A stretch of 29,698 bases of DNA, from IMG/VR virus record IMGVR_UViG_3300045988_079213, positions 1 through 29,698 of that record. One strand, given 5' to 3'. Source of the stretch: a virus. The notes under the pieces were generated by a model. It searched no databases, was not told the DNA's origin, and worked only from the letters and a program-made list of their open reading frames with translations. This document shows positions 1 through 29,698 of this stretch, piece after piece (position 1 is the first letter of the stretch; every line of letters begins with the position of its first letter). Position numbers and translations under genes: made by a program.

Positions 1-55
1 ATATTATGCACTCATTGAGTGCATTTGTCAAGTGTTTTTTATAAACTTTTTTTAT
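1..55 (-). promoter_or_regulatory. Promoter-operator module, the same sequence as 29644-29698 (a third, internal copy lies at 29007-29061)
   Basis: Minus strand reads TTGACA (26-31), a 17-nt spacer, then CATAAT (3-8). A perfect 19-bp palindrome ATGCACTCATTGAGTGCAT lies at 6-24. An A/T-rich UP-like tract lies upstream. Confidence 0.6.
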
Positions 56-2659: not shown

Positions 2660-4078
2660 TTACTCTCCTATTAGTTGCGCCAGTGTTTCATATTCTGATT
2701 GTGATATTGTGTAGTCAATGTCACCAACTTTAATTCCTTGTCTAAATTTTGTTTCCAAATTTACGTCAAAAAGATTTGCTTGTTCTGAGACTTTGCCAAC
2801 CGCCATTCCTCTTCCTGAGTGGTGAAAGTCTATCAATGTAAATCCGGTTCCAAGCAGCTGCGTGTAAACAGATTCAGCAAACGCATCTTTAAGTTTTATC
2901 TCTATGTTCCACGCATAGTCGCTTGAGCACTCAATGATAGTATTTCCGCTTGTTTCATAATCCGAAAGTGGTATGCTGTAGTTTGTTTCGCCAATTGCTT
3001 CTTGTTTGCTAAGTTTTACAACTAGGCTTTTAAGGTTTTTATCATTGAGTCTCGAAATATTAACATCATAACTCACATTGATGTAATCGCCATTGCCGTC
3101 CTCAGCTCCATTAGCCTTACATCTCTCTATCCTAACTGTATCAATGATTGGCGGATGCCACGGCATTATCTCCAGTGTATTATTTTTTACCGTCTCACCG
3201 TTTCGACTATCAATAACTTTTCCTGTGATTTTTAATAGCTGATTAACAGCATCCACAGTTTGCGTACCAGTGTTGTACGTAATATCATCTACAGTTATAG
3301 ACTGCGACCTCAAATGTGCATTGTACTTAAATGTATTGTTGAGTGTGATTTTTACTTTTGATTGTCCCTGCACAAAGCCGCCATATTTTGAAAAATTCTC
3401 GGTTTCATCTGCTACGGATATTTCGCATTCCGGAAGCATGTCAGGAGTCGGTCTTACAGTTATAAGCGGTGCATCTATGCGGCCAAGCGATGTACTTCCG
3501 TTAAAGGTAAATACTCGGATCATCAGCTTTACCTCTGCAGTTGGAAAATATTCCTTCCACGATTCTGGAAGCGTCCACGATGTATCAGTTGGAATTTTGT
3601 CCGCTATTTTTGTATATGTGCTTGGATTGTTGTTTGCCATGACGTAGACGTCATGTGTAAACGCTGTTGATTTTCTATGCGTTAAAATCTCAAATGACTC
3701 GCCAAACGTAATTTCAGATTTTGATGTTGTCGGCGAAGAGGCTCTCGGTATTGTTGTGAGCCATGTATAATCTGATGTTGTGAGTGTTCCGACAATTTTT
3801 GTATTAAAGCTTGCCGATGCTGCTACTCTCTTTGTTCCGTCAAATTCATGATCAATCCAAATTCCAACGCTATAAATCACTTGAGAACTGCCATTGACTT
3901 TAAATCGTGTTGTAAACGGATAACTAACTCCATTTACTGTCAAGGTTCCGTATGCATTTGTATGCTCAGCGTAATATCCACTTGAAGCATGCATCGATAA
4001 ATACACTGCAAGATATGTGCGATTATTTACAATGTCTTGTTGCCCTTGTGAAAACGTAATGCTTGTCCAATATCCCAT
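2660..4078 (-). CDS. Receptor-binding / tail fibre-like structural protein (DUF859-like N-terminus)
   Basis: 472 aa, directly downstream of the Tal-like gene. N-terminal pattern ITFSQGQQDIVNNRTYLAVYLSMHASSGYY... resembles the siphovirus DUF859 family. C-terminal TLIDFHHSGRGMAVGK is typical of Gram-positive phage minor structural proteins. Confidence 0.6.
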   Translation of the reverse strand: MGYWTSITFSQGQQDIVNNRTYLAVYLSMHASSGYYAEHTNAYGTLTVNGVSYPFTTRFKVNGSSQVIYSVGIWIDHEFDGTKRVAASASFNTKIVGTLTTSDYTWLTTIPRASSPTTSKSEITFGESFEILTHRKSTAFTHDVYVMANNNPSTYTKIADKIPTDTSWTLPESWKEYFPTAEVKLMIRVFTFNGSTSLGRIDAPLITVRPTPDMLPECEISVADETENFSKYGGFVQGQSKVKITLNNTFKYNAHLRSQSITVDDITYNTGTQTVDAVNQLLKITGKVIDSRNGETVKNNTLEIMPWHPPIIDTVRIERCKANGAEDGNGDYINVSYDVNISRLNDKNLKSLVVKLSKQEAIGETNYSIPLSDYETSGNTIIECSSDYAWNIEIKLKDAFAESVYTQLLGTGFTLIDFHHSGRGMAVGKVSEQANLFDVNLETKFRQGIKVGDIDYTISQSEYETLAQLIGE

Positions 4079-5680
4079 TTAGCCCACCACCTTTACGAAT
4101 GAAAGATTGCCGTTTTTACGTGGCAAAAAAGCGAACTTGCCCAAAATCAAAGAATTTATAAATTCACCATCTGTCACATAAAGTCTATTGTTGCTCAAGT
4201 ATGCAACCTCTGCCCCTGAGTCGTAAAATGCTACTTTTTCACGTCCTAATTTAAGTTTAAAACGATTGCCTCTTTTACCGAGTTCGATTTCGCCATGCTC
4301 AAATCTTATGTACTCCGATATATCCGAAAACTTTGCAGCAGTACCTTCAGCGAGTCCGTCTAATTCTTGCTTAAACGAATTGAAGTTTATTTGCAAAGCT
4401 GTAGCTGTTTGCTCAACTCTTGTTGATAGAGCTTCTACGACTTTCTCGTTTTCGCTTTTTGAAACATATGTACTACTCACCATTCCTATTATTGATGATT
4501 TCGTTTGTTCAATCAGTGATTTTGCTTTTTGTTCCAGCTCGCCCACTTGCCTTTTTGCTTCTTCTGACGCATTTACAATCGGCTTTATCTTTTCCTCATA
4601 TTTTGATTCCAGCACTTCTGAGAGTCGTTCTCGCATGCCCCCAATTGTGATTGCGTTATTTTCGGGATGTAAAAAGTCTAAAGATAGCTTTTCTATGAGA
4701 TAATGCTGGGCAACTCCATGTACAGAGCTCTCAACTTTAACCCATTTCAAAAGTTTAAAACTGTCTATGTCTCCTAAAACACTTGTGTCTACAGCCTTTA
4801 TGCTAATTGATTCTAAGTCGAGCACACCTTGTCCAAGGTCTTTTATAGCTTTGTTTTTTAGATTCATGGGCTCGGTTACATTGTTGTAGCTTATATGCTT
4901 AACAATACGGCCGAATTTTGCTATGGCTTCTTTACTTTCCACGAACGGAGAACCGTCATTTACAGATTCAATCGTGATTGGTGGACCCTCTTCAGATTGA
5001 GGATTTACTCCCTCTTCAGCTGCTGTCTGCTTTCGCGCACCAGTCGGATAAACAACTGTGTATATTTCTCCGCCTGTGCTTTCTTTTGCTAAATCCATTA
5101 AATTCACGCCAAGCTTGATTTCTTGCTGCATGCGGTAAGGGATTTCTGCTAAATAGTCAAGATAATTCTTGCCAGCTTGCTTTCTGACGAGCATATATCC
5201 GCCATATTTTTTTATTACTTTGTTATTTATAAGCTCCATGATGCTTGGTGCATTCATATCGCTATAATTAACATAGTTATTTGGATCTTCAACTGTTATT
5301 GTTCCAGGATAGATTTTTCTGTTATTCTCGACCTGCGAGTTGTGAAAATCTAAAAGCTTTTTAATATACTCGTTTAGTGTACCTTTGTGCTCATACACAA
5401 GGGCTACCGAATCATTGAGATATGAAAAGGACGACTCGCATAGAATTGTCCTGTTGTTGTAAAAATCCTCGCTTATGTTTAATACTCTTCCATCAAAGAT
5501 TATTTCATTTTGCGAATCAAGAACGCTAATCTCCGATTTTAACTTTTTAAATAATTTGTATGCCGGATTTGTCACCGCTATTTGAAATTTTACGGTGCCA
5601 ACCTTGTTGATCTCAAGCGATGCGGATGCGCTTAGTATATCTTCAATTAAGATATTGCCATCAAGCATTATTTTATACAT
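4079..5680 (-). CDS. Tail-associated protein (Tal; prophage-tail endopeptidase/minor structural N-terminal family)
   Basis: 533 aa in the position after TMP and Dit. The N-terminal region resembles the phage minor structural protein / Prophage_tail family. Coiled-coil C-terminal part. Confidence 0.7.
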   Translation of the reverse strand: MYKIMLDGNILIEDILSASASLEINKVGTVKFQIAVTNPAYKLFKKLKSEISVLDSQNEIIFDGRVLNISEDFYNNRTILCESSFSYLNDSVALVYEHKGTLNEYIKKLLDFHNSQVENNRKIYPGTITVEDPNNYVNYSDMNAPSIMELINNKVIKKYGGYMLVRKQAGKNYLDYLAEIPYRMQQEIKLGVNLMDLAKESTGGEIYTVVYPTGARKQTAAEEGVNPQSEEGPPITIESVNDGSPFVESKEAIAKFGRIVKHISYNNVTEPMNLKNKAIKDLGQGVLDLESISIKAVDTSVLGDIDSFKLLKWVKVESSVHGVAQHYLIEKLSLDFLHPENNAITIGGMRERLSEVLESKYEEKIKPIVNASEEAKRQVGELEQKAKSLIEQTKSSIIGMVSSTYVSKSENEKVVEALSTRVEQTATALQINFNSFKQELDGLAEGTAAKFSDISEYIRFEHGEIELGKRGNRFKLKLGREKVAFYDSGAEVAYLSNNRLYVTDGEFINSLILGKFAFLPRKNGNLSFVKVVG

Positions 5681-22585: not shown

Positions 22586-22786
22586 TTACAATTCTTGTTC
22601 GAAGAGATACTCTGTATCCAGCTTTTCGAAGAATATGTTTCTGATAGATAGCGCTTCTTTGTAAGTAAACGGCGTTTTCCCTGAAATCTTATTTTTTACA
22701 GTTCTTTCTGAACACTGTAGTAATGATGCTATTTCTGATACAGTGACCTTGTGCCTTGCCATTTCTGCCAATAAGTTATTGCACAT
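22586..22786 (-). CDS. Cro-like XRE-family HTH regulator
   Basis: 66 aa. VTVSEIASLLQCSERTVKNKISGK forms the HTH. RBS AAAGGAGGA. First gene of the early operon, divergent from the CI-like gene. Confidence 0.75.
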   Translation of the reverse strand: MCNNLLAEMARHKVTVSEIASLLQCSERTVKNKISGKTPFTYKEALSIRNIFFEKLDTEYLFEQEL

Positions 22787-22806
22787 CTCCAGTCCTCCTT
22801 TCTGTC

Positions 22807-22921
22807 ATATCCAAACTTGGAAACTTTAAATACATATTATATCCAAGTTTGGATATTGTCAACATATTTTTTCCGAATTTGGAAAAATTTTGTTGACTGT
22901 TTTCCGAGTTAGATGTATATT
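22807..22921. promoter_or_regulatory. Lysis/lysogeny switch: divergent promoters and three to four TCCAA-NN-TTGGA operators
   Basis: The minus-strand promoter is TTGACA (22857-22862), 17 nt, TAATAT (22834-22839), with O2 (22839-22856, ATATCCAAGTTTGGATAT) filling the spacer. The plus-strand promoter is TTGACT (22893-22898), 17 nt, TATATT (22916-22921). O1 is at 22807-22824, O3 at 22869-22886, and a degenerate site at 22900-22915. Confidence 0.7.
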
Positions 22922-22948
22922 TGTGTCATCAAGGAAAGGAGCTCTGTC

Positions 22949-23269
22949 ATGGGTTTAGAAAAAATAAAATATATAATGAAAATTAAAGGACTTACTGCCG
23001 AAATGCTATCGCAAAGAAGTGGGGTTCCTAAAAGCACAATAAATAAAATTACTTCTGGCGTAACTCCTGATCCAAGATACGAAACTGTGAAAGCCCTCGC
23101 TAATGCCCTTGACCTTAACATTGATGAGTTGTCGGAATATCTTGGAATTGACGCTACAGATTATGTGCCAGGAACTATCGCAGCTCATCATGATGACGAA
23201 TATTGGACAGCTGAAGAGCTTGATGAGATAGAACGATTCAAGGCATATGTGAAATCAAAAAGAAAATAA
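22949..23269 (+). CDS. CI-like repressor (XRE HTH)
   Basis: 106 aa from the ATG at 22949 (RBS GGAAAGGAG). LTAEMLSQRSGVPKSTINKITSG forms the HTH. Followed by the ImmA-like gene. Confidence 0.8.
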   Translation: MGLEKIKYIMKIKGLTAEMLSQRSGVPKSTINKITSGVTPDPRYETVKALANALDLNIDELSEYLGIDATDYVPGTIAAHHDDEYWTAEELDEIERFKAYVKSKRK

Positions 23270-23301
23270 ACTTCTAAATATATTGACTGCGGAGGTGGAC
23301 G

Positions 23302-23688
23302 ATGAATAGATATGAGGAATTGATTGCTGAGTATGAGAACGAGTTGAGCATTGAAGAACGTACCATGTTTAATAAGGGTCTCTACTGCGACAATGTTGTA
23401 TGGATTAATAGAAGAATGTCCACCGCCGAAAAGCTTTCAATTGTAGCCGAGGAAATAGGTCATTATAAAACCTCTTCAGGCGATATATTAGAGCAGGATA
23501 ATATATCAAATATAAAGCAGGAATTGCAAGCAAGGCGGTGGGCATACGAAAAAGTTCTGCCGCTTGATTTGATTATGCAGGCAATAACAAATGGTTTTAC
23601 TGAGGTTTATGATTTAGCCGAGCATTTCGATGTTACAGAGACATTTATGCGTGAATGCTTAAAGCATTACAGGTTACTAGATATATAA
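23302..23688 (+). CDS. ImmA/IrrE-family metallopeptidase-like protein (anti-repressor protease), variant metal motif
   Basis: 128 aa in the canonical position after the repressor. The expected HEXXH position reads EEIGH (residues 50-54). Confidence 0.65.
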   Translation: MNRYEELIAEYENELSIEERTMFNKGLYCDNVVWINRRMSTAEKLSIVAEEIGHYKTSSGDILEQDNISNIKQELQARRWAYEKVLPLDLIMQAITNGFTEVYDLAEHFDVTETFMRECLKHYRLLDI

Positions 23689-24272: not shown

Positions 24273-25283
24273 ATGAATCAAAAACCTTTTAAAACACATG
24301 AAGAACAAATTGAATTACTAAAATCAAGAGGCATCGATTTTAGCGGCCTTGATGCAGAGAGCTGTGCAATAGACTACTTTTCACGAGTTGGATATTATCG
24401 TCTCATAAATGGATATAATAGGCCGTTTCTTGATAAAAGCTCGTTAACACAAGCTGATGACGACAAATATCGTAAAGGAACTACTTTAAAAGAGATTTAT
24501 GCACTCTATGTTTTTGATGATATGTTGAGAGAGTTTGTTTTAAAATATACACTTAAAATTGAGACTCACGTCAAAAGCCTCCTTGCATATAGAATTTCGA
24601 AACAGTATGGTCACGAGAATTATTTACGATACGCAAATTTTGATACTTCTAAAAAAATAGGATACAACGATGTTGTAAATGTTATATCAGAGATACACAA
24701 AACGATCTCTTCCAGAATTTCTGACCCAAGCATAAACCATTATTTGACAAAATATGGTTATGTTCCACTATGGGTATTAAATAACTCTCTTACTTTTGGC
24801 ACAATTAGTAAACTATACAGCATTATGAAGGTACCTGATAGGCAATATGTATCAAAACAGTTTATGATTCCCGATTCACAGCTCGGAAATTTCTTAATCT
24901 ATTTGACAAAGGTTAGAAATACCGCTGCACATTCCAATCGACTCTATTGTATGCGAAATAAACGCCCAATTGTTGATACACCAATCCACGCAGCTATGAA
25001 TATTGCCAAGAATTCTAAAGGTGACGAATATATATATGGCAAACGCGACTTTTTCGCCACTGTTATTATATTTAGGTATTTTTTATCTAATAACGATTTT
25101 AAGAAATTTATAGCCCAGCTAAAAAACATATTAAATAGTTTAAATCAGAGACTGAACTCAATACAAATATCAGCTATAAAGGAAATAATGGGGTTGCCTG
25201 ATGATTGGTATAAAATTCCTAAAAAACAATCTGCTAGGGGAGCATCAAAATGCAAAGATTGCTTATCTGAGGTTGACGATTAA
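24273..25283 (+). CDS. Abortive-infection protein, Abi_2 (AbiD/AbiF-like) family
   Basis: 336 aa. The N-terminal KPFKTHEEQIELLKSRGI...DYFSRVGYYRLINGY and later VRNTAAHSNRLY are hallmark Abi_2 patterns. Confidence 0.8.
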   Translation: MNQKPFKTHEEQIELLKSRGIDFSGLDAESCAIDYFSRVGYYRLINGYNRPFLDKSSLTQADDDKYRKGTTLKEIYALYVFDDMLREFVLKYTLKIETHVKSLLAYRISKQYGHENYLRYANFDTSKKIGYNDVVNVISEIHKTISSRISDPSINHYLTKYGYVPLWVLNNSLTFGTISKLYSIMKVPDRQYVSKQFMIPDSQLGNFLIYLTKVRNTAAHSNRLYCMRNKRPIVDTPIHAAMNIAKNSKGDEYIYGKRDFFATVIIFRYFLSNNDFKKFIAQLKNILNSLNQRLNSIQISAIKEIMGLPDDWYKIPKKQSARGASKCKDCLSEVDD

Positions 25284-25364
25284 AGTTTCTTATATTGTAC
25301 GATGGTAGATCTTTTGTACTTTTGAATTGATTATAAATCTTCGCATGCTATTCGGGAGGTGCGT

Positions 25365-26432
25365 ATGCCAAAAAAATATAAGTTTGAAAAATACTTTAAA
25401 ATAGATGGCGTGCGATATGTGGTTCGTGCTGATTCGGAATTTGAGTTGATTCAAAAATATACAAATAAGGTTCGTGACATTGAGGAGGGTAAAATAGTTC
25501 TTGCTGGTTCTACCACCGTTGAGGATTGGACTATGCAAGCGATTAAAGTTTACAAAACAAGGCAATCAGACTTAACTCAAAGAAAATATATAAGCAAAGT
25601 TAAATCTTGCATACTTGCTCAAATTGGAAAGATGCAGCTTAAAGCAGTTAAGCCTCTTCACTGTCAAAACACATTAAATCTTCAGGCTGGCAAATCCAAG
25701 GCGCAAATCAATGAAGTTTATCAGGCGTTAAACTTTATTTTTTCTAAAGCCGTTGAAAATCACCTCATTGTTGATAATCCAGCAAAGTATATTGTTAAGC
25801 CTCAAGGGACTAAAACACATCGCCGAGCAATCACGGAAATTGAAGAGCTTTATATTAGAGATGTTGCTAAAACCGATAGACGATATTATTTATATCTCTT
25901 AATGCTTGATTGCGGATGTCGTCCATCCGAAGCAGCAGAGTGTAAAGGTATGGATATATTGCTTAAAGACGACATCCCTTTGCTGCATATTCGCGGGACG
26001 AAATCGGTTAATGCTGATAGAACAGTTCCAATTCCGCACGATTTATATGAATTGATAAAGCATACGCCGCCTTTTGAATACATCGCATGCTACAGTTCCG
26101 GAACTGCTATAAAGTATGAAAATCGTAATCGTGTATGGACATCTTTTAAAAGACGACTAAACATCGCGATGGGCTGCAAGATGTATCGCAATCAGCTCAT
26201 ACCGCCTTACCTTGTCGCTCCCGATTTAGTGCCGTATTGCTTCAGACATACATATTGCACCAATCTTGCGCGAAAGGGAATTGACATCAGAATGGCTCAA
26301 AAGCTCATGGGCCACTCTGATATATCTCTTACAGCTAACATTTATACAAATCTTGACGAAAGCGATGTACTTGATGTAGCGAAGATATTAAATCAATCAA
26401 CGGCAAATAATAAAATTTCTAAACTACCATGA
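25365..26432 (+). CDS. int: Tyrosine recombinase / phage integrase
   Basis: 355 aa from the ATG at 25365 (RBS GGGAGG); the track start at 25359 is a GTG. Catalytic pattern is R (CGCRPSEA) ... HIRGTKS ... FRHTY ... GHSDISLTANIYTNL. Confidence 0.9.
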   Translation: MPKKYKFEKYFKIDGVRYVVRADSEFELIQKYTNKVRDIEEGKIVLAGSTTVEDWTMQAIKVYKTRQSDLTQRKYISKVKSCILAQIGKMQLKAVKPLHCQNTLNLQAGKSKAQINEVYQALNFIFSKAVENHLIVDNPAKYIVKPQGTKTHRRAITEIEELYIRDVAKTDRRYYLYLLMLDCGCRPSEAAECKGMDILLKDDIPLLHIRGTKSVNADRTVPIPHDLYELIKHTPPFEYIACYSSGTAIKYENRNRVWTSFKRRLNIAMGCKMYRNQLIPPYLVAPDLVPYCFRHTYCTNLARKGIDIRMAQKLMGHSDISLTANIYTNLDESDVLDVAKILNQSTANNKISKLP

Positions 26433-26449
26433 TTTATGGTAGTTTTTTT
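26424..26449 (+). terminator. Integrase terminator
   Basis: CTACCAT-gattt-ATGGTAG followed by T7. The stem overlaps the stop codon. Confidence 0.75.
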
Positions 26450-26454
26450 GTTAA

Positions 26455-26580
26455 GGTGTTGCACAGGGTGTTGCACGCAAGAGGGCAATTTAGGGCAATA
26501 TAAGGCAATGCATGTTTTAAAAATCCATTGATTTTGAAAACAAAAAGAGCCCTGCATTGCCTGAAAATCAAGCAATTGCA
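26455..26580. repeat. attP arm-type repeat cluster
   Basis: GGTGTTGCAC occurs twice (26455, 26467). RGGCAAT occurs three times at 10-bp phasing (26483, 26493, 26503). An inverted ATTGCC is at 26556 and GCAATTGC at 26572. Confidence 0.55.
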
Positions 26581-26593
26581 AGACTTTTTCTTT

Positions 26594-26642
26594 TGGAGCT
26601 CCCGAGCGGACTCGAACCGCTGACCCGCGCATTACGAATGCG
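26594..26642 (-). other. attP core: 3' half of tRNA-Thr(CGU), from the anticodon arm through CCA
   Basis: Minus strand reads cgca-ttCGTaa-tgcgc gggtc agcgg-ttcgagt-ccgct cgggagc t cca. The expected 5' half (D arm, acceptor 5' strand) is absent upstream. Confidence 0.75.
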
Positions 26643-26723
26643 AGAAAAAACGGCTAAAATTCAACCTTTATCCTATGTGGTGTGCCTTTAGGTGTGTATA
26701 TAGTCGGTATGTTTAACCCCCTA

Positions 26724-27248
26724 TTATCTGTACTTCTCCCATTCCTTAGCTTCTTCGATTTCTTCGTCATAGATAAACCTATATCCGTTGTAGTAATGAC
26801 GACACCCATAAAATGAAAGAATTCTGTCAGTACCTGCCGTTGTATCCTCTGTGTGATTGGGGTATAACCACTTTAATTGTTCAGTGATATATTCAATCAA
26901 CTTGTCTTGATTTATTTCAATTGGTTCAAAGCTATCTATTCTGATAAGAGGTTCGCCGTCTCTACCTTCTCCGACTTTGTCGCCTACTAACAAATACGCC
27001 TGTTTATCGACTCGACACGCTAACGACCTGAGTAAGTCAATAGTATTGCAAAAAGGCAAACCGTTCACAAACTCAAATGCAGATACTCCGCTTTCAAAGC
27101 AATGCTCAGGGATTGACTCGTAAGCGTCATTGACTCCGTAAGCCCTTAGGCACCAACTGAAATACTCGTTATCATCTGACGATAGCTTTATGAAATTAAT
27201 GCTTTTGCCATTTGGAGGAATTGCACCGAATCGAATTGCTTTTATCAT
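26724..27248 (-). CDS. 174-aa protein of unknown function, translationally coupled to the upstream RHH gene
   Basis: ATGA overlap with the RHH gene (27245-27248). I recognise no family. Confidence 0.6.
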   Translation of the reverse strand: MIKAIRFGAIPPNGKSINFIKLSSDDNEYFSWCLRAYGVNDAYESIPEHCFESGVSAFEFVNGLPFCNTIDLLRSLACRVDKQAYLLVGDKVGEGRDGEPLIRIDSFEPIEINQDKLIEYITEQLKWLYPNHTEDTTAGTDRILSFYGCRHYYNGYRFIYDEEIEEAKEWEKYR

Positions 27249-27427
27249 CTTTTACCTTTCTCTTTATTTTTTTCAAGCTCCTTTTTCAACAAAGAAACTC
27301 CTCTTAATACAGCCTCTATTTTTGATATTGAAAGTTGTTCCATGCAATATTCTATGTCGTCCATTTCTGACTTTGCAATTCTCAAAGAGAGCCTCCTATC
27401 TCTTGGGTTGGTTGTAGGTCTGCCCAT
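27245..27427 (-). CDS. Ribbon-helix-helix (CopG/MetJ-type) DNA-binding protein
   Basis: 60 aa from the ATG at 27427 (the track start at 27475 is a TTG). GRPTTNPRDRRLSLRIAKSEMDDIEYCMEQLSISKIEAVLRGV fits the RHH beta-alpha-alpha pattern. The RBS is weak. Confidence 0.55.
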   Translation of the reverse strand: MGRPTTNPRDRRLSLRIAKSEMDDIEYCMEQLSISKIEAVLRGVSLLKKELEKNKEKGKR

Positions 27428-27548
27428 TTTCTTATTTTTGATAAAGCACCTCTTTTCTTTTCTTGCCTTTTTCAATCCAATGTGCTATATTGAAATTGGA
27501 TAAGGTGTACGGGCAAGTCGCACACCTTGAGATTTTGAGAAGATTTGA

Positions 27549-27668
27549 TTATTTTATCAAGTCTTCTATTTTTTTAATCGTTTCAGGCTTTACATTGTCA
27601 TCTTCTAATATCTGAATAATCATTTTTAGTACTACCTGAAATTGTTCGTTCGTCATTCCTTGTTCCAT
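27549..27668 (-). CDS. 39-aa acidic micro-protein, first gene of the RHH operon
   Basis: Hand translation gives MEQGMTNEQFQVVLKMIIQILEDDNVKPETIKKIEDLIK. RBS GAAAGGAG. Confidence 0.4.
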   Translation of the reverse strand: MEQGMTNEQFQVVLKMIIQILEDDNVKPETIKKIEDLIK

Positions 27669-27725
27669 TTTTTCTCCTTTCTGGCACTTGCCACCTTATT
27701 TATCAAGTGTTCCTTGACTATATAT

Positions 27726-27822
27726 AATATAACATATGGCTACCCAAAAGTCAATACTTTTTTAAAAATTTTTTATAAAATTTTAACTTAACTTGACAGC
27801 ATCATATACAAAATGGTAATTT
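27726..27822. promoter_or_regulatory. Divergent promoters of the accessory island
   Basis: Minus strand: TTGACT (27749-27754), 17 nt, TATATT (27726-27731). Plus strand: TTGACA (27793-27798), 18 nt, TGgTAATTT (27814-27822). Confidence 0.5.
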
Positions 27823-27859: not shown

Positions 27860-28135
27860 ATGGCAAATATAAGACTGGATATTGATGCAGCTATTGCATC
27901 CGGCAAAGATTTTGCTAAAAATCTTGATAAACAGCACTTTGAAAAGCTTAAAAAATTTCTAATTGATAACAACATTTTCGAAGACGATGAATTTATAAGC
28001 GGAATATGTGAAATCGGACTATCCGGGAAAGTAGATGTAAGCTTTTTAACTCACTTGCTTGAGTTAAAATCTTATGATCGCACAAAATTAATCCAAGGTT
28101 TTGTGCTTGGAATAACAGATACTTTCGAAGAATAA
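27860..28135 (+). CDS. 91-aa acidic protein, unknown function
   Basis: RBS AGGAG with its own promoter, followed by a strong terminator. Confidence 0.6.
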   Translation: MANIRLDIDAAIASGKDFAKNLDKQHFEKLKKFLIDNNIFEDDEFISGICEIGLSGKVDVSFLTHLLELKSYDRTKLIQGFVLGITDTFEE

Positions 28136-28136
28136 A

Positions 28137-28163
28137 AAGAGGCTATACAGCCTCTTTTCTTTT
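28137..28163. terminator. Bidirectional rho-independent terminator
   Basis: AAGAGGCT-atac-AGCCTCTT (8-bp stem). T-rich tracts follow on both strands. Confidence 0.8.
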
Positions 28164-28395
28164 GATTATACAAGATACACTTTAAATTCCAATTTGGATA
28201 TATTCAACTAATATAGTATCTTTTATTATAACTCTTTTTTTGATTAAACAAGGTACACTTTAAATTCCAATTTGGATATATTCAACTAATATAGTATCTT
28301 TATTATAACTCTTTTCTTGATTATACAAGACATACTTTAAATTCCAATTTGGGTATGTTCGATGAAATATATTATACTCTCATTATAATATATTT
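28162..28395. repeat. Three tandem direct repeats (77-78 bp), each with the palindrome TCCAATTTGGA
   Basis: Units start at 28162, 28240 and 28317. Units 1 and 2 differ by 2 substitutions and 1 indel. Unit 3 is conserved for about 40 bp and then diverges. Palindromes are at 28188-28198, 28266-28276 and 28343-28353 (the last is degenerate). Confidence 0.9.
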
Positions 28396-28640
28396 GGACT
28401 GTCTGTCAATCTTTTCTTTATGAGTCTTTCAAGAAGTCAATGAGCATTTATCTTTAGAGATGATATATCGTACTATATTACATACGCAATTCTTTATCTG
28501 CACATGAAAAATATTTTTTTACGATTTCAACCGCCAGCTCTCTGTCTGGTCCGTTTGTATTTGAAGTTATTGTGTGTCCAGCATCAAACATATTACATTC
28601 TACAACTTTATATGTTATTTTATTTATAGTCACATTGTGC

Positions 28641-28964
28641 TCATAAACTAACATTTTTTATTAAATTAAACTGTATTATTCCATCATAATATTTCTTTTT
28701 AGCTTCTAATATTGCATTTGCCTGATTTTCTTTGATACTTCTATGTTCCTCTTTTGTTAATGTCCAATATACTTGTTTGTTCATATATTCGAACGCAATG
28801 ACATGGATCCATTCCCCATTATTTTTAACACAGTTTGTTTCTGCACGAAGTTCTTCACCATTATTTATTTTTACAGTCATAGAATTTTTATACGCATTGT
28901 ACAGAAGTTCTATTGTTCTTGAATTTCTTTCTGCCTCAAATATTTTTTTACTTTCAAGTTTCAT
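28641..28964 (-). CDS. 107-aa protein of unknown function under promoter-operator copy B
   Basis: RBS AAAGAGGT. Its 5' UTR and first two codons are shared with the 29366-29593 gene. Confidence 0.65.
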   Translation of the reverse strand: MKLESKKIFEAERNSRTIELLYNAYKNSMTVKINNGEELRAETNCVKNNGEWIHVIAFEYMNKQVYWTLTKEEHRSIKENQANAILEAKKKYYDGIIQFNLIKNVSL

Positions 28965-29006
28965 TTTTTACCTCTTTTCGTTTGCTTTGTTTTATCTTAT
29001 GTCTAT

Positions 29007-29061
29007 ATTATGCACTCATTGAGTGCATTTGTCAAGTGTTTTTTATAAACTTTTTTTATCT
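29007..29061 (-). promoter_or_regulatory. Promoter-operator module copy B
   Basis: TTGACA (29031-29036), 17 nt, CATAAT (29008-29013). The 19-bp palindrome is at 29011-29029. It is an exact 69-bp match to the copy at the window end. Confidence 0.65.
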
Positions 29062-29228
29062 TTTTTGCAATCTGCATCTACTTTAAACTCTAACAGATCT
29101 AATATATATTTTGCCGGCTTGCGACTTCCCTCTTCCCAATTTTGCAAAGTCCTACGTGACATTCCATATTTTTCTGAAAACCGTGCTTGGCTTAATCCAG
29201 TTCGCTTTCTAAGTTCTTTTATATCCAT
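29043..29228 (-). CDS. 61-aa XRE-family HTH regulator (Aca-like / HigA-NadS-like)
   Basis: LRKRTGLSQARFSEKYGMSRRTLQNWEEGSRKP is a classic XRE HTH. RBS AAGGGGG. The 3' end overlaps promoter copy B. Confidence 0.75.
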   Translation of the reverse strand: MDIKELRKRTGLSQARFSEKYGMSRRTLQNWEEGSRKPAKYILDLLEFKVDADCKKDKKSL

Positions 29229-29272
29229 TCTGCCCCCTTGATTTTGTTTTGTTTTTATTTTATAATCTACAA

Positions 29273-29341
29273 AGCCTCAAAAAATAGGCTTTGTTTTGTT
29301 TTAACCGCCCTCTTGATCCTTTCGGATGAGGGCGGTTTTTC
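29273..29341 (+). ncRNA. Candidate antisense small RNA (about 70 nt)
   Basis: Plus-strand promoter TTGATT (29238-29243), 17 nt, TATAAT (29261-29266). Hairpin 1 is ACAAAGCCT/AGGCTTTGT (29269-29294). Hairpin 2 is ACCGCCCTC/GAGGGCGGT (29304-29336) followed by T5. Both hairpins have U-tails only on the plus strand. Confidence 0.45.
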
Positions 29342-29365
29342 TGATTTACCTATATTATTTTTTTA

Positions 29366-29593
29366 TTATTTATCTTCGATTTCGATTTCGATTTCGTTTT
29401 CAATTGTCGCACCGTGTTCTAACGCATATGCTATAGTTTCATCTGTCCAATAATCCTCGGTAATTTCTACATCTTCCATAAATTTTGCATTTCTTACCAA
29501 TACTGTTTTCCCATCAATGAGAAATTCAAGGTCACAAGTATCATTAAAATCATTGTAGTAACTTCCCATCAAATTTGCTTCTGTAAATTTCAT
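29366..29593 (-). CDS. 75-aa highly acidic protein (candidate DNA-mimic / anti-defence)
   Basis: About 20 D/E against 5 K/R. RBS AAAGAGGT. First gene downstream of promoter-operator copy A. The C-terminus is NEIEIEIEDK. Confidence 0.65.
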   Translation of the reverse strand: MKFTEANLMGSYYNDFNDTCDLEFLIDGKTVLVRNAKFMEDVEITEDYWTDETIAYALEHGATIENEIEIEIEDK

Positions 29594-29643
29594 TTTTTTA
29601 CCTCTTTCTTTTTTTTGCTTTTGCTTTGCTTTATCTTATGTCT

Positions 29644-29698
29644 ATATTATGCACTCATTGAGTGCATTTGTCAAGTGTTTTTTATAAACTTTTTTTAT
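29644..29698 (-). promoter_or_regulatory. Promoter-operator module copy A (identical to 1-55)
   Basis: TTGACA (29669-29674), 17 nt, CATAAT (29646-29651). The palindrome is at 29649-29667. Confidence 0.65.

What the first reader, a model, noticed from the sequence alone, without database searches (positions are those of the whole stretch)
28641..29698. Duplicated strong promoter with a perfect 19-bp palindromic operator driving small proteins plus a 61-aa HTH: acr-aca-like anti-defence locus candidate
Seen in sequence:
- A unit of about 110 bp occurs at 28961-29072 and at 29590-29698, continuing into 1-72 if the contig is circular.
- On the minus strand each copy reads: A/T-rich UP-like tract, TTGACA, 17-nt spacer, CATAAT, a leader of about 45 nt, AAAGAGGT RBS, ATGAAA.
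- A perfect palindrome ATGCACTCA-T-TGAGTGCAT fills the spacer and touches the -10.
- Copy A drives a 75-aa protein with about 20 D/E against 5 K/R, then a 61-aa XRE HTH.
- Copy B overlaps the 3' end of the HTH gene and drives a 107-aa protein.

Established: anti-CRISPR operons typically consist of small acr genes followed by a small HTH (Aca). The Aca protein autorepresses a very strong promoter through inverted repeats overlapping the -35/-10. DNA-mimic anti-restriction and Acr proteins are strongly acidic.

Inference: this is an autoregulated immediate-early anti-defence cassette. The HTH is the palindrome binder and two unrelated payload genes are wired to the same operator. A HigA-like antitoxin role for the HTH is an alternative, but the upstream partner is acidic, unlike known toxins.
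Basis: partly seen in the sequence, partly recalled or inferred. Interest (0 to 1): 0.8.

Follow-up and report, generated by a model that had tools for sequence, protein, structure and literature searches.

The report
Repressor-controlled swappable gene cassettes in prophage
A small gut-bacterial virus carries two copies of a strong on-switch, each blocked by the same tiny DNA-binding protein, that drive interchangeable genes of unknown function; the wiring resembles known anti-immunity loci, but nothing yet shows what the genes do.

Summary
The sequence features are real. The window is a circular ~29.64-kb temperate siphophage contig (1-55 repeats 29644-29698), so there are two promoter copies, not three. 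Each copy has an A/T tract, TTGACA, a 17-nt spacer filled by ATGCACTCA-N-TGAGTGCAT, CATAAT, a CA-rich leader and AAAGAGGT-ATG.

Comparative data support the regulatory reading. The identical palindrome lies in the promoter of operons encoding five diverged homologues of the 61-aa HTH (44-89% identity). One of these is a chromosomal AbiE-like locus. In related phages the promoter/operator and HTH are conserved while the genes in both slots are swapped. In the wider HTH family the operator always fills the -35/-10 spacer and varies with the HTH.

The anti-defence label is unproven. No cargo protein matches Pfam, PHROGs, PADLOC or PDB, and the p75 model has no fold match. The commonest variant carries tiny membrane peptides. 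The "107-aa protein" is the front half of a 253-aa gene broken by a 275-bp deletion. The HTH matches no solved Aca or AcrIIA1 structure.

Verdict: a new member of the Aca-like, HTH-autorepressed accessory cassette kind, in the lysin-to-attP moron island. Regulatory model ~0.72; anti-defence payload ~0.3.

The parts
29590..29698 (-). Regulatory cassette copy A. It continues into 56-66 across the circular junction; 1-55 duplicates 29644-29698. Elements: A/T-rich tract, -35 TTGACA 29669-29674, palindrome 29649-29667, -10 CATAAT 29646-29651, ~46-nt CA-rich leader, RBS AAAGAGGT 29600-29607, ATG 29591-29593.
29366..29593 (-). Cargo slot 1: 75-aa acidic protein (p75; pI 4.05). It belongs to a very small family whose domain also occurs fused to other sequence.
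29269..29337 (-). Two conserved stable hairpins (29303-29337 and 29269-29294) that begin the conserved HTH module. They have terminator-type T-tracts only on the + strand. Inferred to let sense transcription through and to stop antisense read-in.
29043..29228 (-). 61-aa XRE-type HTH, the predicted repressor. Recognition helix S-R-R-T-L-Q-N-W-E; tail LLEFKV.
28959..29071 (-). Regulatory cassette copy B. Elements: -35 29030-29035, palindrome 29010-29028, -10 29007-29012, RBS 28970-28977, ATG 28962-28964. Its upstream A/T tract encodes the last codons of the HTH.
28641..28964 (-). Cargo slot 2: 107-aa ORF. It is the N-terminal part of a 253-aa gene that is intact in L003/L082 and is truncated here by a 275-bp frameshifting deletion.
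28478..28654 (-). 58-aa ORF, the C-terminal remnant of the same 253-aa gene. It has its own ATG, which overlaps the stop region of the 107-aa ORF.
1..55 (.). Exact copy of 29644-29698. This is the terminal overlap of a circular assembly, not a third promoter.

Best explanation
This is a repressor-gated accessory-gene module in the variable island between the endolysin gene and attP/integrase of a ~29.6-kb temperate siphophage from uncultured gut Firmicutes.

Proposed mechanism:
- A ~115-125-bp cassette is present twice. Each copy has an A/T-rich upstream tract, TTGACA, a 17-nt spacer, CATAAT, an unstructured CA-rich leader and a strong RBS. Each copy heads one cargo slot.
- The 61-aa XRE HTH encoded between the slots binds as a dimer to the 19-bp palindrome that fills the spacer. 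The two 9-bp half-sites have centres one helical turn apart. Binding blocks RNA polymerase at both promoters.
- The HTH has no promoter of its own. It is made by read-through from promoter A across two hairpins that lack sense-strand U-tracts, so the circuit is a negative feedback loop.
- When the DNA enters a cell without HTH, or on induction, the cargo is made in a burst. Afterwards, and in lysogens, expression is held at a low set-point.

Cargo: the cargo genes are exchangeable cassettes. In this window slot 1 holds a 75-aa acidic protein of a rare family and slot 2 holds a broken 253-aa gene. Their biochemical roles are unknown. Anti-defence is the leading single candidate (about 0.3), but membrane-acting, superinfection-exclusion or toxin-like moron functions are equally compatible.

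Status of each step:
- Shown: sequence anatomy, conservation, cargo swapping, and co-occurrence and co-variation of HTH and operator.
- Inferred: DNA binding, repression, read-through, timing.
For: Anatomy.

The HTH is a dedicated local regulator.
- The half-site occurs only in the two cassettes.
- The phage has a separate CI-like/ImmA/Cro-like switch at 22586-23688.

The HTH and the operator are a cognate pair.
- The identical palindrome, in the TTGACAA...TAAT context, occurs with HTH1 (88-98% identity) in more than 15 phage loci.
- It also occurs with diverged homologues that sit in the same operon: L044 HTH2 (49%), L010 (51%, palindrome ~20 nt upstream of the gene, followed by AbiEii), L045 (44%) and a frameshifted copy in L032.
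- L088, a 49% homologue with a different recognition helix, has a different spacer.

The wider family (46 viral loci) behaves the same way.
- The layout is promoter, cargo, then HTH as the last gene, with the inverted repeat always in the spacer.
- 19 of 27 listed promoters have a CA-N-TG core in the spacer, against ~4% expected by chance per 17-mer.
- Within the ~90%-identical 122-aa subfamily, 'QSWE[MI]G[ED]RVPP' goes with ACTGCACAaTGTGTTA (6 loci). 'QNWELGV[NS][IV]PP' goes with ACACCGAnTCGGTGT (3 loci).

Cargo is swapped while the promoter/operator, the hairpins and the HTH stay fixed.
- Slot 1 holds p75, p77, p83, p170 or 36-aa + 23-aa peptides.
- Slot 2 holds p253, p120/121, p240 or nothing.
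- A p75-like gene also sits in a different mini-operon with an RHH regulator in L168.

Other points.
- No minus-strand promoter is found between the hairpins and the HTH, and the hairpins have T-tracts only on the + strand.
- Literature: Aca proteins are mostly 60-65 aa single-HTH proteins that bind an inverted repeat within the core promoter (PMC9410906). AcrIIA1-NTD binds a conserved palindrome in the Listeria acr promoter (bioRxiv 10.1101/787200).
Against: - No binding or expression data exist.
- Nearly identical HTH2 proteins occur with three operator variants (ATGCACTCAATGAGTGCAT, ATGCACTCAATGCGTGC, AATACGCAATGCGTGTT). Specificity therefore rests on a core (ACnCA-N-TGnGT) rather than on the full 19 bp, and the simple 'R-T-x-Q recognises this palindrome' rule is too strict.
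- HTH and promoter are linked within 0.2-2 kb, so part of the co-variation is co-inheritance.
- The two hairpins could terminate sense transcription partially. The HTH would then need an unrecognised promoter.
- The exact-match search for the palindrome biases the sample towards perfect operators.
- Slot 2 in this window is a broken gene, so copy B may currently drive nothing functional.
Confidence: 0.72

Rival explanations
1. One reading: a genuine acr-aca-type anti-defence locus. The HTH is an Aca-like autorepressor. The cargo proteins (acidic p75 family, the p253 family and others) inhibit host CRISPR-Cas, R-M or Abi systems immediately after DNA entry.
For: - The architecture equals that described for acr-aca operons: a small single-HTH protein downstream of small genes, with an inverted repeat inside a strong core promoter (PMC9410906; bioRxiv 10.1101/787200).
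- Cargo turnover is high while the regulator is conserved.
- Several cargo proteins are strongly acidic: p75, p83, p170 and p240, pI 4.0-4.4.
- A 39%-identical p75 relative lies in an early operon next to an orphan N6 DNA methylase, divergent from a CI-like repressor, in L171.
- The cargo has no homology to anything, as is typical of Acrs.
Against: - No cargo protein matches a known Acr or anti-restriction protein, by sequence or fold.
- The HTH has no hit to solved Aca1, Aca2 or AcrIIA1 chains at E <= 1.
- The same HTH-operator pair drives an AbiEii toxin locus.
- The most frequent phage variant carries 36-aa and 23-aa membrane peptides.
- Cargo in the wider family includes a J-domain protein, DUF3560 and Phage_Gp111, none with a known anti-defence role.
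- According to PMC9410906, most Aca-like genes are not associated with known acrs.
Confidence: 0.3
2. A lysogenic-conversion / moron island. The cassettes are expressed from the prophage at a repressor-set level. They benefit the lysogen, for example through superinfection exclusion, membrane-acting peptides, or defence or toxin functions, rather than helping the phage to overcome immunity.
For: - The position is between the endolysin and attP/attR, each unit having its own promoter and hairpins; this is the classical moron anatomy.
- In integrated copies the HTH or cargo is the last gene before host DNA or the tRNA 3' end.
- Small transmembrane peptides are the commonest cargo.
- The same operator and HTH control an AbiE-type system.
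- The phage also carries AbiD next to the integrase.
Against: - No cargo hits any PADLOC defence model.
- Strong acidic bias and very rapid cargo turnover also fit anti-defence.
- There are no expression data from lysogens.
Confidence: 0.3
3. A toxin-antitoxin-like pair: the HTH is a HigA/MqsA-type antitoxin and the upstream or downstream small protein is its toxin.
For: - There are weak HTH matches to HigA-2 (E 0.013), to MqsA_antitoxin (0.014, below cutoff) and to Xre-like antitoxin HTH.
- In L010 a homologous HTH is fused to a domain that precedes AbiEii.
Against: - The neighbours of the HTH are not fixed: five different genes occupy slot 1 and three or none occupy slot 2.
- No toxin family is hit.
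- The 61-aa protein is essentially only the DNA-binding domain, with no extra neutralising domain.
- p75 is acidic and also occurs without this HTH (L168, L171).
Confidence: 0.07
4. The palindrome is not a protein operator. It would be an RNA hairpin/terminator or a recombination site, and the duplication would merely reflect recombination between promoter cassettes.
For: - The same 19-mer occurs in many unrelated Bacteroidota and Proteobacteria contigs, flanked by A- and T-runs like a terminator.
- The promoter 'chassis' is shared by many loci and looks recombinogenic.
Against: - In the phage loci the palindrome lies upstream of the predicted start site, between -35 and -10. It has a 1-nt centre, which is unfavourable as an RNA loop, and no T-run follows.
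- It is always accompanied by an HTH of one family.
- Family-wide, different inverted repeats occupy exactly the same spacer position.
Confidence: 0.05

Closest known systems
acr-aca operons (Aca1-Aca13 families) and the Listeria prophage acr locus controlled by the AcrIIA1 N-terminal HTH
   Same: - Small genes are followed by a ~60-aa single-domain HTH.
- An inverted repeat lies inside a strong core promoter, giving predicted autorepression.
- Payloads turn over fast and lack homologues.
- The locus sits on a temperate phage; from my memory of Rauch 2017, the Listeria locus is also at the prophage end after the lysis genes.
- Sources: PMC9410906; bioRxiv 10.1101/787200.
   Different: - No payload is a known Acr.
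- The HTH shows no detectable sequence relation to solved Aca or AcrIIA1 proteins.
- Two promoter/operator copies serve two slots, with the regulator between them.
- Conserved antisense-oriented hairpins precede the regulator.
- The same HTH/operator pair also controls an AbiE-type locus.
AbiE (type IV TA / abortive infection): AbiEi antitoxin autoregulating through inverted repeats
   Same: - In L010 a 51%-identical HTH sits right behind the identical palindrome-promoter and is followed by an AbiEii nucleotidyltransferase.
- Negative autoregulation by the DNA-binding domain is the established AbiEi paradigm (my knowledge of Dy et al. 2014).
   Different: - The phage protein is only the DNA-binding domain (61 aa).
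- There is no AbiEii in the window or in the phage relatives.
- AbiEi normally uses a winged HTH, not an XRE HTH.
Morons / lysogenic-conversion cassettes of temperate phages
   Same: They are independent promoter-gene-hairpin units inserted between the lysis module and the att site, and they vary between otherwise similar phages.
   Different: Here the units share a dedicated trans-acting repressor and a standardised promoter/leader 'chassis'. Classical morons are not described as being under a private repressor.
Controller (C) proteins of restriction-modification systems
   Same: A small XRE HTH binds palindromic boxes overlapping its own promoter to time expression after entry into a new cell. 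There is a weak PADLOC 'Control_protein' hit (E 0.003).
   Different: - No R-M genes are present.
- The regulator is the last gene, not the first.
- There is a single palindrome instead of paired C-boxes with an activating site.
HigA2 / MqsA-type XRE antitoxins
   Same: The HTH carries the 'RT-Q-WE-G-RKP' type motif. There are weak matches to HigA-2 and MqsA. PHROG 2104 members carry an N-terminal extension, like HigA2.
   Different: There is no conserved toxin partner and no N-terminal neutralising domain in the 61-aa protein.

Membership tests
acr-aca operon / Aca protein | Small HTH protein encoded downstream of, and co-oriented with, small genes in one transcription unit | tested here: met
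   p75 is followed by hairpins without a sense U-tract and then by the HTH, all on the minus strand, with no promoter in between. In L044 the HTH directly ends the operon.
acr-aca operon / Aca protein | Inverted repeat within the core promoter of the operon (IR1 of PMC9410906) | tested here: met
   The 19-bp palindrome fills the 17-nt spacer and overlaps the -10 at both copies. The position is conserved family-wide.
acr-aca operon / Aca protein | The HTH binds that repeat and represses the promoter | not testable with these tools
   There is only comparative support: co-occurrence and co-variation.
acr-aca operon / Aca protein | At least one associated gene is an anti-CRISPR (known family or demonstrated activity) | tested here: not met
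   No cargo protein matches Pfam, PHROGs or PDB sequences, which include the solved Acrs. There are no fold matches for p75 or p107. Activity is untested.
acr-aca operon / Aca protein | Sequence membership in a named Aca family (Aca1-13, AcrIIA1-NTD) | tested here: inconclusive
   phmmer against all PDB chains at E <= 1 returns only generic XRE proteins (DBP48, Stl, PezA, HigA-2, 434 repressor) and no Aca or AcrIIA1 entry. No Aca HMM library was available, so unsolved Aca families could not be excluded.
Type II TA (HigBA / MqsRA-like) | Conserved, co-evolving toxin gene adjacent to the HTH antitoxin | tested here: not met
   The adjacent genes differ between near-identical loci. There are no toxin family hits.
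Type II TA (HigBA / MqsRA-like) | Antitoxin-family sequence match above curated threshold | tested here: not met
   MqsA_antitoxin scores 16 bits against a cutoff of 30. Xre-like-HTH scores 20.6 against 25.8. HigA-2 E = 0.013.
AbiE (AbiEi/AbiEii) | AbiEii nucleotidyltransferase toxin next to the regulator | tested here: not met
   AbiEii is absent from the window and the phage relatives. It is present only in the chromosomal locus L010 (PF08843 2.7e-7; PADLOC AbiEii 2.4e-9).
Moron (independent transcription unit in a prophage accessory region) | Own promoter and downstream hairpin/terminator, inserted between conserved modules, variably present among relatives | tested here: met
   The position between endolysin (90-1106) and integrase/attP is shown.
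R-M controller (C) protein | Linked restriction endonuclease / methyltransferase genes | tested here: not met
   No R-M genes lie in the island.

The most novel reading that the evidence does not exclude
The 'LLEFKV-tail' XRE proteins are a previously unnamed Aca-like regulator family that marks anti-defence islands in temperate phages of gut Clostridia.
- They use a standardised promoter chassis (AAAGTTTATAAAAAG-NN-TTGACAA) whose 17-nt spacer carries exchangeable operators.
- The p75 acidic domain, p253, p77, p120, p240 and the small membrane peptides would then be new inhibitors of host immunity.
- Homologues of the repressor encoded on the host side of the tRNA attB, and in an AbiE locus with the identical operator, would let the host (or the phage) cross-silence the other's promoter. 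This would be analogous to host-encoded AcrIIA1-NTD acting as an 'anti-anti-CRISPR'.
Probability: 0.22. Interest if true: 0.8.

Novelty: new member of a known kind. Interest (0 to 1): 0.5.

Why it matters
If the regulatory model holds, the HTH and its promoter chassis become a practical search handle (guilt by association). It could find fast-evolving accessory proteins, possibly anti-defence proteins, in phages of uncultured gut Firmicutes, where almost no anti-defence biology is known. At least eight cargo families with no homologues were collected here through this handle alone.

The finding also gives a clean natural example of modular wiring. One repressor and one 19-bp operator are copied to several promoters, and the genes are swapped as cassettes. 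The same module is shared with a chromosomal AbiE-type system, which raises the testable possibility of regulatory cross-talk between phage and host.

If the cargo turns out to be ordinary lysogenic-conversion genes, this is a well-documented but unsurprising moron island.

Tried and rejected
- Homology of all cargo proteins to Pfam, PHROGs, PADLOC and PDB sequences gave nothing.
- The p75 AlphaFold2 model (6-sequence alignment, pLDDT 75) has no Foldseek match below E = 1 in PDB or BFVD.
- The p107 single-sequence model (pLDDT 62) gave only meaningless matches.
- The large protein database search for p107 found no homologue at all.
- p75 has only 6 close clusters and 11 clusters at 50% identity among 1.84 billion representatives. 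It has no match in plasmids or GenBank phages.
- blastn of the locus against GenBank phages gave no match.
- Rfam gave no family for the hairpins, the leader or the neighbouring tandem repeats.
- I considered that the 78-bp tandem repeats downstream encode a structured or type III antitoxin-like RNA. RNAalifold finds no consensus structure for the unit, so this is left open.
- I considered that the HTH is the phage's lysis-lysogeny repressor. This is rejected, because a separate CI/ImmA/Cro set exists and the half-site occurs nowhere else.
- I considered a strict 'R-T-x-Q recognises ATGCACTCA' code. This is rejected as too simple, because L110 and the HTH2 loci with the same helix use ACGCA-A-TGCGT.
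- Most genome and metagenome hits to the bare palindrome are unrelated A-run/T-run hairpins in Bacteroidota or Proteobacteria and were discarded.
- A profile of all eight HTH variants was too diverse for the locus search; a five-sequence profile worked.
- Literature searches for DUF3560 and for acr loci next to endolysins gave nothing usable.
Full report
**What the window is**

The first 55 bases repeat the last 55 exactly, so the contig is a circular assembly of about 29,643 bp.
- The minus strand carries a complete siphophage late region: large terminase, major head protein, holin and a GH25 endolysin at 90-1106.
- The plus strand carries a tyrosine integrase (25359-26432) and an AbiD/Abi_2 gene (24273-25283), plus a CI-like repressor with an ImmA-like protease (22913-23688). 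A Cro-like gene faces them on the minus strand.
- The large terminase is at most ~50% identical to those of cultured Terrisporobacter, Lactobacillus and Bacillus phages.
- The locus has no DNA match in GenBank phages.
- Relatives come from human-gut viromes and metagenomes.

The finding lies in the accessory island that runs, on the minus strand, from the end of the endolysin gene to attP and the integrase.

**Check of the observation**

- Promoters. TTGACA-17-CATAAT promoters lie at 29674..29646 and 29035..29007 (11/12 matches).
- Palindrome. The 9-1-9 palindrome ATGCACTCA-W-TGAGTGCAT begins one base after the -35 and shares CAT with the -10. It is expected 0.02 times per window even with three mismatches. 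Its half-site occurs nowhere else in the phage.
- Repeat unit. It is longer than reported. It starts at ATTGCAAAAAA, ~45 bp upstream of the -35. It is ~99% identical for 93 nt and has indels only in the CA-rich leader.

Corrections:
- There are two copies, not three, because 1-55 equals 29644-29698.
- The last codons of the HTH gene are part of the upstream A/T tract of copy B.
- Two very stable hairpins lie between the 75-aa gene and the HTH gene (29303-29337 and 29269-29294; -36 kcal/mol, z = -5.6). Their T-tracts are on the + strand only. In the sense direction they are not canonical terminators.
- The 107-aa ORF is the front part of a 253-aa gene that is intact in L003 and L082. The window has a 275-bp out-of-frame deletion. 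This leaves the C-terminal 58 aa as a separate overlapping ORF.

**Related loci: a conserved regulator with swapped cargo**

I scanned three public collections for the bare palindrome. This returned many unrelated terminator-like hairpins, which I discarded, and about 25 true relatives in the context TTGACAA-palindrome-TAAT. In the phage relatives the order is always endolysin, terminator, promoter/operator, cargo, two hairpins, HTH, then an optional second promoter/operator with more cargo.

The promoter, leader, RBS, hairpins and HTH are 88-98% conserved. The cargo is replaced wholesale.
- Slot 1 holds one of: p75 (window, L071); an unrelated 77-aa protein (L003, L082, L119-121); an 83-aa or 170-aa protein with a p75-like C-terminal domain (L042, L004); or, most often, a 36-aa and a 23-aa hydrophobic peptide (L002, L005-7, L044, L047, L053, L057, L075, L081).
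- Slot 2 holds one of: the 253-aa gene; a 120/121-aa protein; a 240-aa acidic protein ending in a p75-like domain; or nothing. In the last case host DNA (thrC, mntP) or a tRNA 3' end follows directly.

This pattern argues against a toxin-antitoxin pair, in which the partners would be fixed. It argues for a generic regulator serving exchangeable cassettes.

**Is the HTH the palindrome binder?**

First, the identical 19-mer accompanies HTH homologues that have diverged to 44-51% identity, and in each case it lies in the promoter of the operon that encodes them.
- In L044 the order is promoter/operator, 36-aa gene, 23-aa gene, HTH2, then attR.
- In L010 (an Anaerovoracaceae genome) the palindrome-promoter lies ~20 nt upstream of an HTH-fusion protein, which is followed by an AbiEii toxin (Pfam 2.7e-7, PADLOC 2.4e-9).
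- L045 shows the same arrangement, as does a decayed copy of the L010 arrangement in a Lachnospiraceae genome, L032.
- A 49% homologue with a different recognition helix (L088) has a different spacer.

Second, a profile of these HTHs retrieved 46 viral loci.
- Where a promoter could be recognised, the layout is again promoter, cargo, then HTH as the last gene. The HTH often carries a ~75-aa N-terminal extension.
- The inverted repeat always sits in the -35/-10 spacer, usually with a CA-N-TG centre. This holds for 19 of 27 listed promoters, against ~4% expected per random 17-mer. Most of the others have GA-N-TC.

Third, within one ~90%-identical 122-aa subfamily, two operator types segregate perfectly with two versions of the segment after the recognition helix (six loci against three).

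Caveats:
- Regulator and promoter are closely linked, so co-inheritance contributes to the co-variation.
- Nearly identical HTH2 proteins occur with three operator variants that share only the core ACnCA-N-TGnGT.
- The exact-match search favours perfect palindromes.

The HTH is not the phage's main switch repressor, because a CI/ImmA/Cro set exists elsewhere.

**How it most likely works**

The geometry is that of a dimeric XRE repressor occluding RNA polymerase: two 9-bp half-sites with centres ~10 bp apart, filling the spacer. No minus-strand promoter is detectable between the hairpins and the HTH gene, and the hairpins lack sense-strand U-tracts. So the HTH is most simply made by read-through from promoter A, which gives negative feedback.
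- Promoter B, which overlaps the 3' end of the HTH gene, puts slot 2 under the same control.
- The unstructured CA-rich leader and the AAAGAGGT RBS suggest high translation.
- The result would be a burst of cargo when the DNA enters a cell lacking the repressor, or on induction, and a low set-point in lysogens.
- The antisense-oriented terminators may stop read-in from host DNA. In the commonest prophage form the HTH is the last gene before attR.

All of this paragraph is inference from anatomy. It is consistent with what has been shown for Aca proteins and for AcrIIA1-NTD (PMC9410906; bioRxiv 10.1101/787200).

**What the cargo is**

The cargo is unknown.
- p75, p77, p83, p170, p107/p253, p120, p240 and the peptides match nothing in Pfam, PHROGs, PADLOC or the PDB sequence set.
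- p75 belongs to a tiny family: 6 clusters at 90% identity, and 11 clusters at 50% identity among 1.84 billion representatives. Its ~65-residue domain (NL..SYYN...T.DLEF....W.R......EDYWTDE.I.YA) occurs alone or fused to other sequence.
- The p75 AlphaFold2 model is a small beta-sheet plus one helix (pLDDT 75). It has no fold match in PDB or BFVD.
- p107 modelled poorly and matched nothing.
- p75 relatives are absent from plasmids and from GenBank phages.

Two context clues point in opposite directions.
- In L171 a 39%-identical p75 relative lies in an early operon, in the order SLT transglycosylase, p74, membrane protein, orphan N6 DNA methylase. The operon is divergent from a CI-like repressor. 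This is mildly suggestive of an establishment or anti-restriction role.
- On the other side, the commonest slot-1 cargo is two tiny membrane peptides. The identical HTH/operator controls an AbiE-type defence/TA locus. Cargo in the wider family (J-domain protein, DUF3560, Phage_Gp111) has no known anti-defence role.
- In L168 a p75-like gene sits in a different mini-operon governed by an RHH protein. The cargo therefore moves between differently regulated modules.

**Comparison with known systems**

In wiring, this works like an acr-aca operon. It has a ~60-aa single-HTH protein downstream of small orphan genes, and an inverted repeat inside a strong core promoter. PMC9410906 reports that Acr-associated Aca proteins average 60-65 aa and that IR1 is always inside the core promoter.

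Membership in the acr-aca class is not established.
- No associated gene is a known Acr.
- The HTH has no detectable relation to solved Aca or AcrIIA1 chains.
- I had no Aca HMM set with which to exclude the remaining families.
- PMC9410906 also notes that most Aca-like genes are not linked to known acrs.

The locus equally fits the definition of morons placed under a private repressor. It shares its DNA-binding module with an AbiEi-like protein. It is not a HigBA/MqsRA-type TA, because there is no fixed partner and the scores are sub-threshold. It is not an R-M controller unit, because there are no R-M genes.

**Verdict**

The regulatory interpretation is well supported by comparative evidence (about 0.72). 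The anti-defence function is a reasonable but unproven hypothesis (about 0.3), with a lysogenic-conversion or membrane-acting role just as likely. I rate it a new member of a known kind, the HTH-autorepressed accessory cassette. It has practical value as a search handle for orphan accessory proteins in gut Firmicutes phages. Interest 0.5.

Noticed in passing
window 28135-28409 (minus strand): A perfect consensus promoter (TTGACA-16-TATAAT, 28409..28382) feeds three tandem ~78-bp repeats (28378-28154; 100/94/71% identity), which end at a strong bidirectional terminator (28135-28158). There is no ORF.
- Each repeat contains the palindrome TCCAAATTGGA and a TTGGAA-16-TATAAT promoter-like site.
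- Relatives have 2 (L004) or 3 (L082) copies.
- There is no Rfam match and no consensus RNA structure for the unit.
- It could be a promoter/operator array, iterons, or a repeat RNA (a type III antitoxin mimic was considered). It remains unexplained.
   Followed up: partly
window 26724-27790 (minus strand); L168 5440-6210: A third mini-operon of the island: a chassis-type promoter with a different spacer (TTGACT-tttgggtagccatatgt-TATATT), then a 39-aa gene, a 60-aa RHH-like repressor (phrog_876, 4e-11) and a 174-aa acidic protein, just before attP. In L168 the same promoter, small gene and RHH are followed by a p75-like gene instead of the 174-aa gene.
   Followed up: partly
L089-L117, L126-L167 (viral contigs): The upstream 'chassis' AAAGTTTATAAAAAG-NN-TTGACAA and a '..acataag(a/g)..' leader are shared by many gut-phage loci, often right after the lysin gene. 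The 17-nt spacer carries different inverted repeats in different loci. This looks like a standard promoter scaffold with exchangeable operators.
   Followed up: partly
L010 2600-4051 (Anaerovoracaceae genome contig CAVAON010000004.1); L032 3690-4470: The identical 19-bp palindrome-promoter drives a 214-aa protein whose first 60 residues are 51% identical to the phage HTH. An AbiEii nucleotidyltransferase toxin follows. L032 (Lachnospiraceae) holds a frameshifted, decayed copy. The phage regulator and a chromosomal defence/TA locus share one operator, so cross-regulation is conceivable.
   Followed up: partly
L074 ~3100-3280, L120 5901-6080, L129 3863-4042, L168 6398-6577: A 59-aa HTH of the same family (recognition helix RTIQDWE) is encoded on the host side of the tRNA attB site, just beyond the prophage's right end. 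It may be a host or cryptic-element repressor able to act on incoming phage cassettes, comparable to host-encoded AcrIIA1-NTD in Listeria.
   Followed up: no
L053 3300-3720, L044 (oriented) 5159-5562: The commonest slot-1 cargo is two tiny hydrophobic peptides: 36 aa (MKQKKKNQKLKEFAINTASGIISGVVSGLITWLLTR) and 23 aa (MKIYLIVAVVVAVAVTGILNRRK).
- In L044 they are followed directly by HTH2 and the tRNA 3' end.
- In L053-type loci HTH2 is deleted.
- In L053-type loci an att-like remnant separates the peptides from the hairpin-HTH1 module, suggesting assembly of the locus by recombination at att sites.
   Followed up: partly
L171 2088-3998: A 39%-identical p75-family protein lies in an early operon, in the order SLT transglycosylase, p74, membrane protein, orphan N6 DNA methyltransferase (PF02384, 5.7e-13). 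The operon is divergent from a CI-like repressor.
   Followed up: yes
window 24273-26700: A prophage-encoded AbiD/Abi_2 abortive-infection gene (PADLOC AbiD 6.5e-62) lies next to the integrase. The 79-aa ORF at 26393-26632 looks like translated tRNA-3'-like DNA, which is the probable attP.
   Followed up: partly
L011-L031, L033-L034, L036-L041 etc. (Bacteroidota / Proteobacteria contigs): The same 19-mer occurs in many unrelated genomes, flanked by A-runs and T-runs (terminator-like hairpins) or in GC-rich contexts. These are unrelated to the phage operator. They are a caution for pattern-only searches.
   Followed up: yes
L143-L154 (viral contigs): In the 122-aa HTH subfamily the cargo includes a J-domain protein (PF00226), DUF3560 (3.5e-34), an 82-aa acidic protein, a 113-117-aa protein with a GWNADVY motif, and the p240 protein carrying a p75-like C-terminal domain. 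All are of unknown function.
   Followed up: partly
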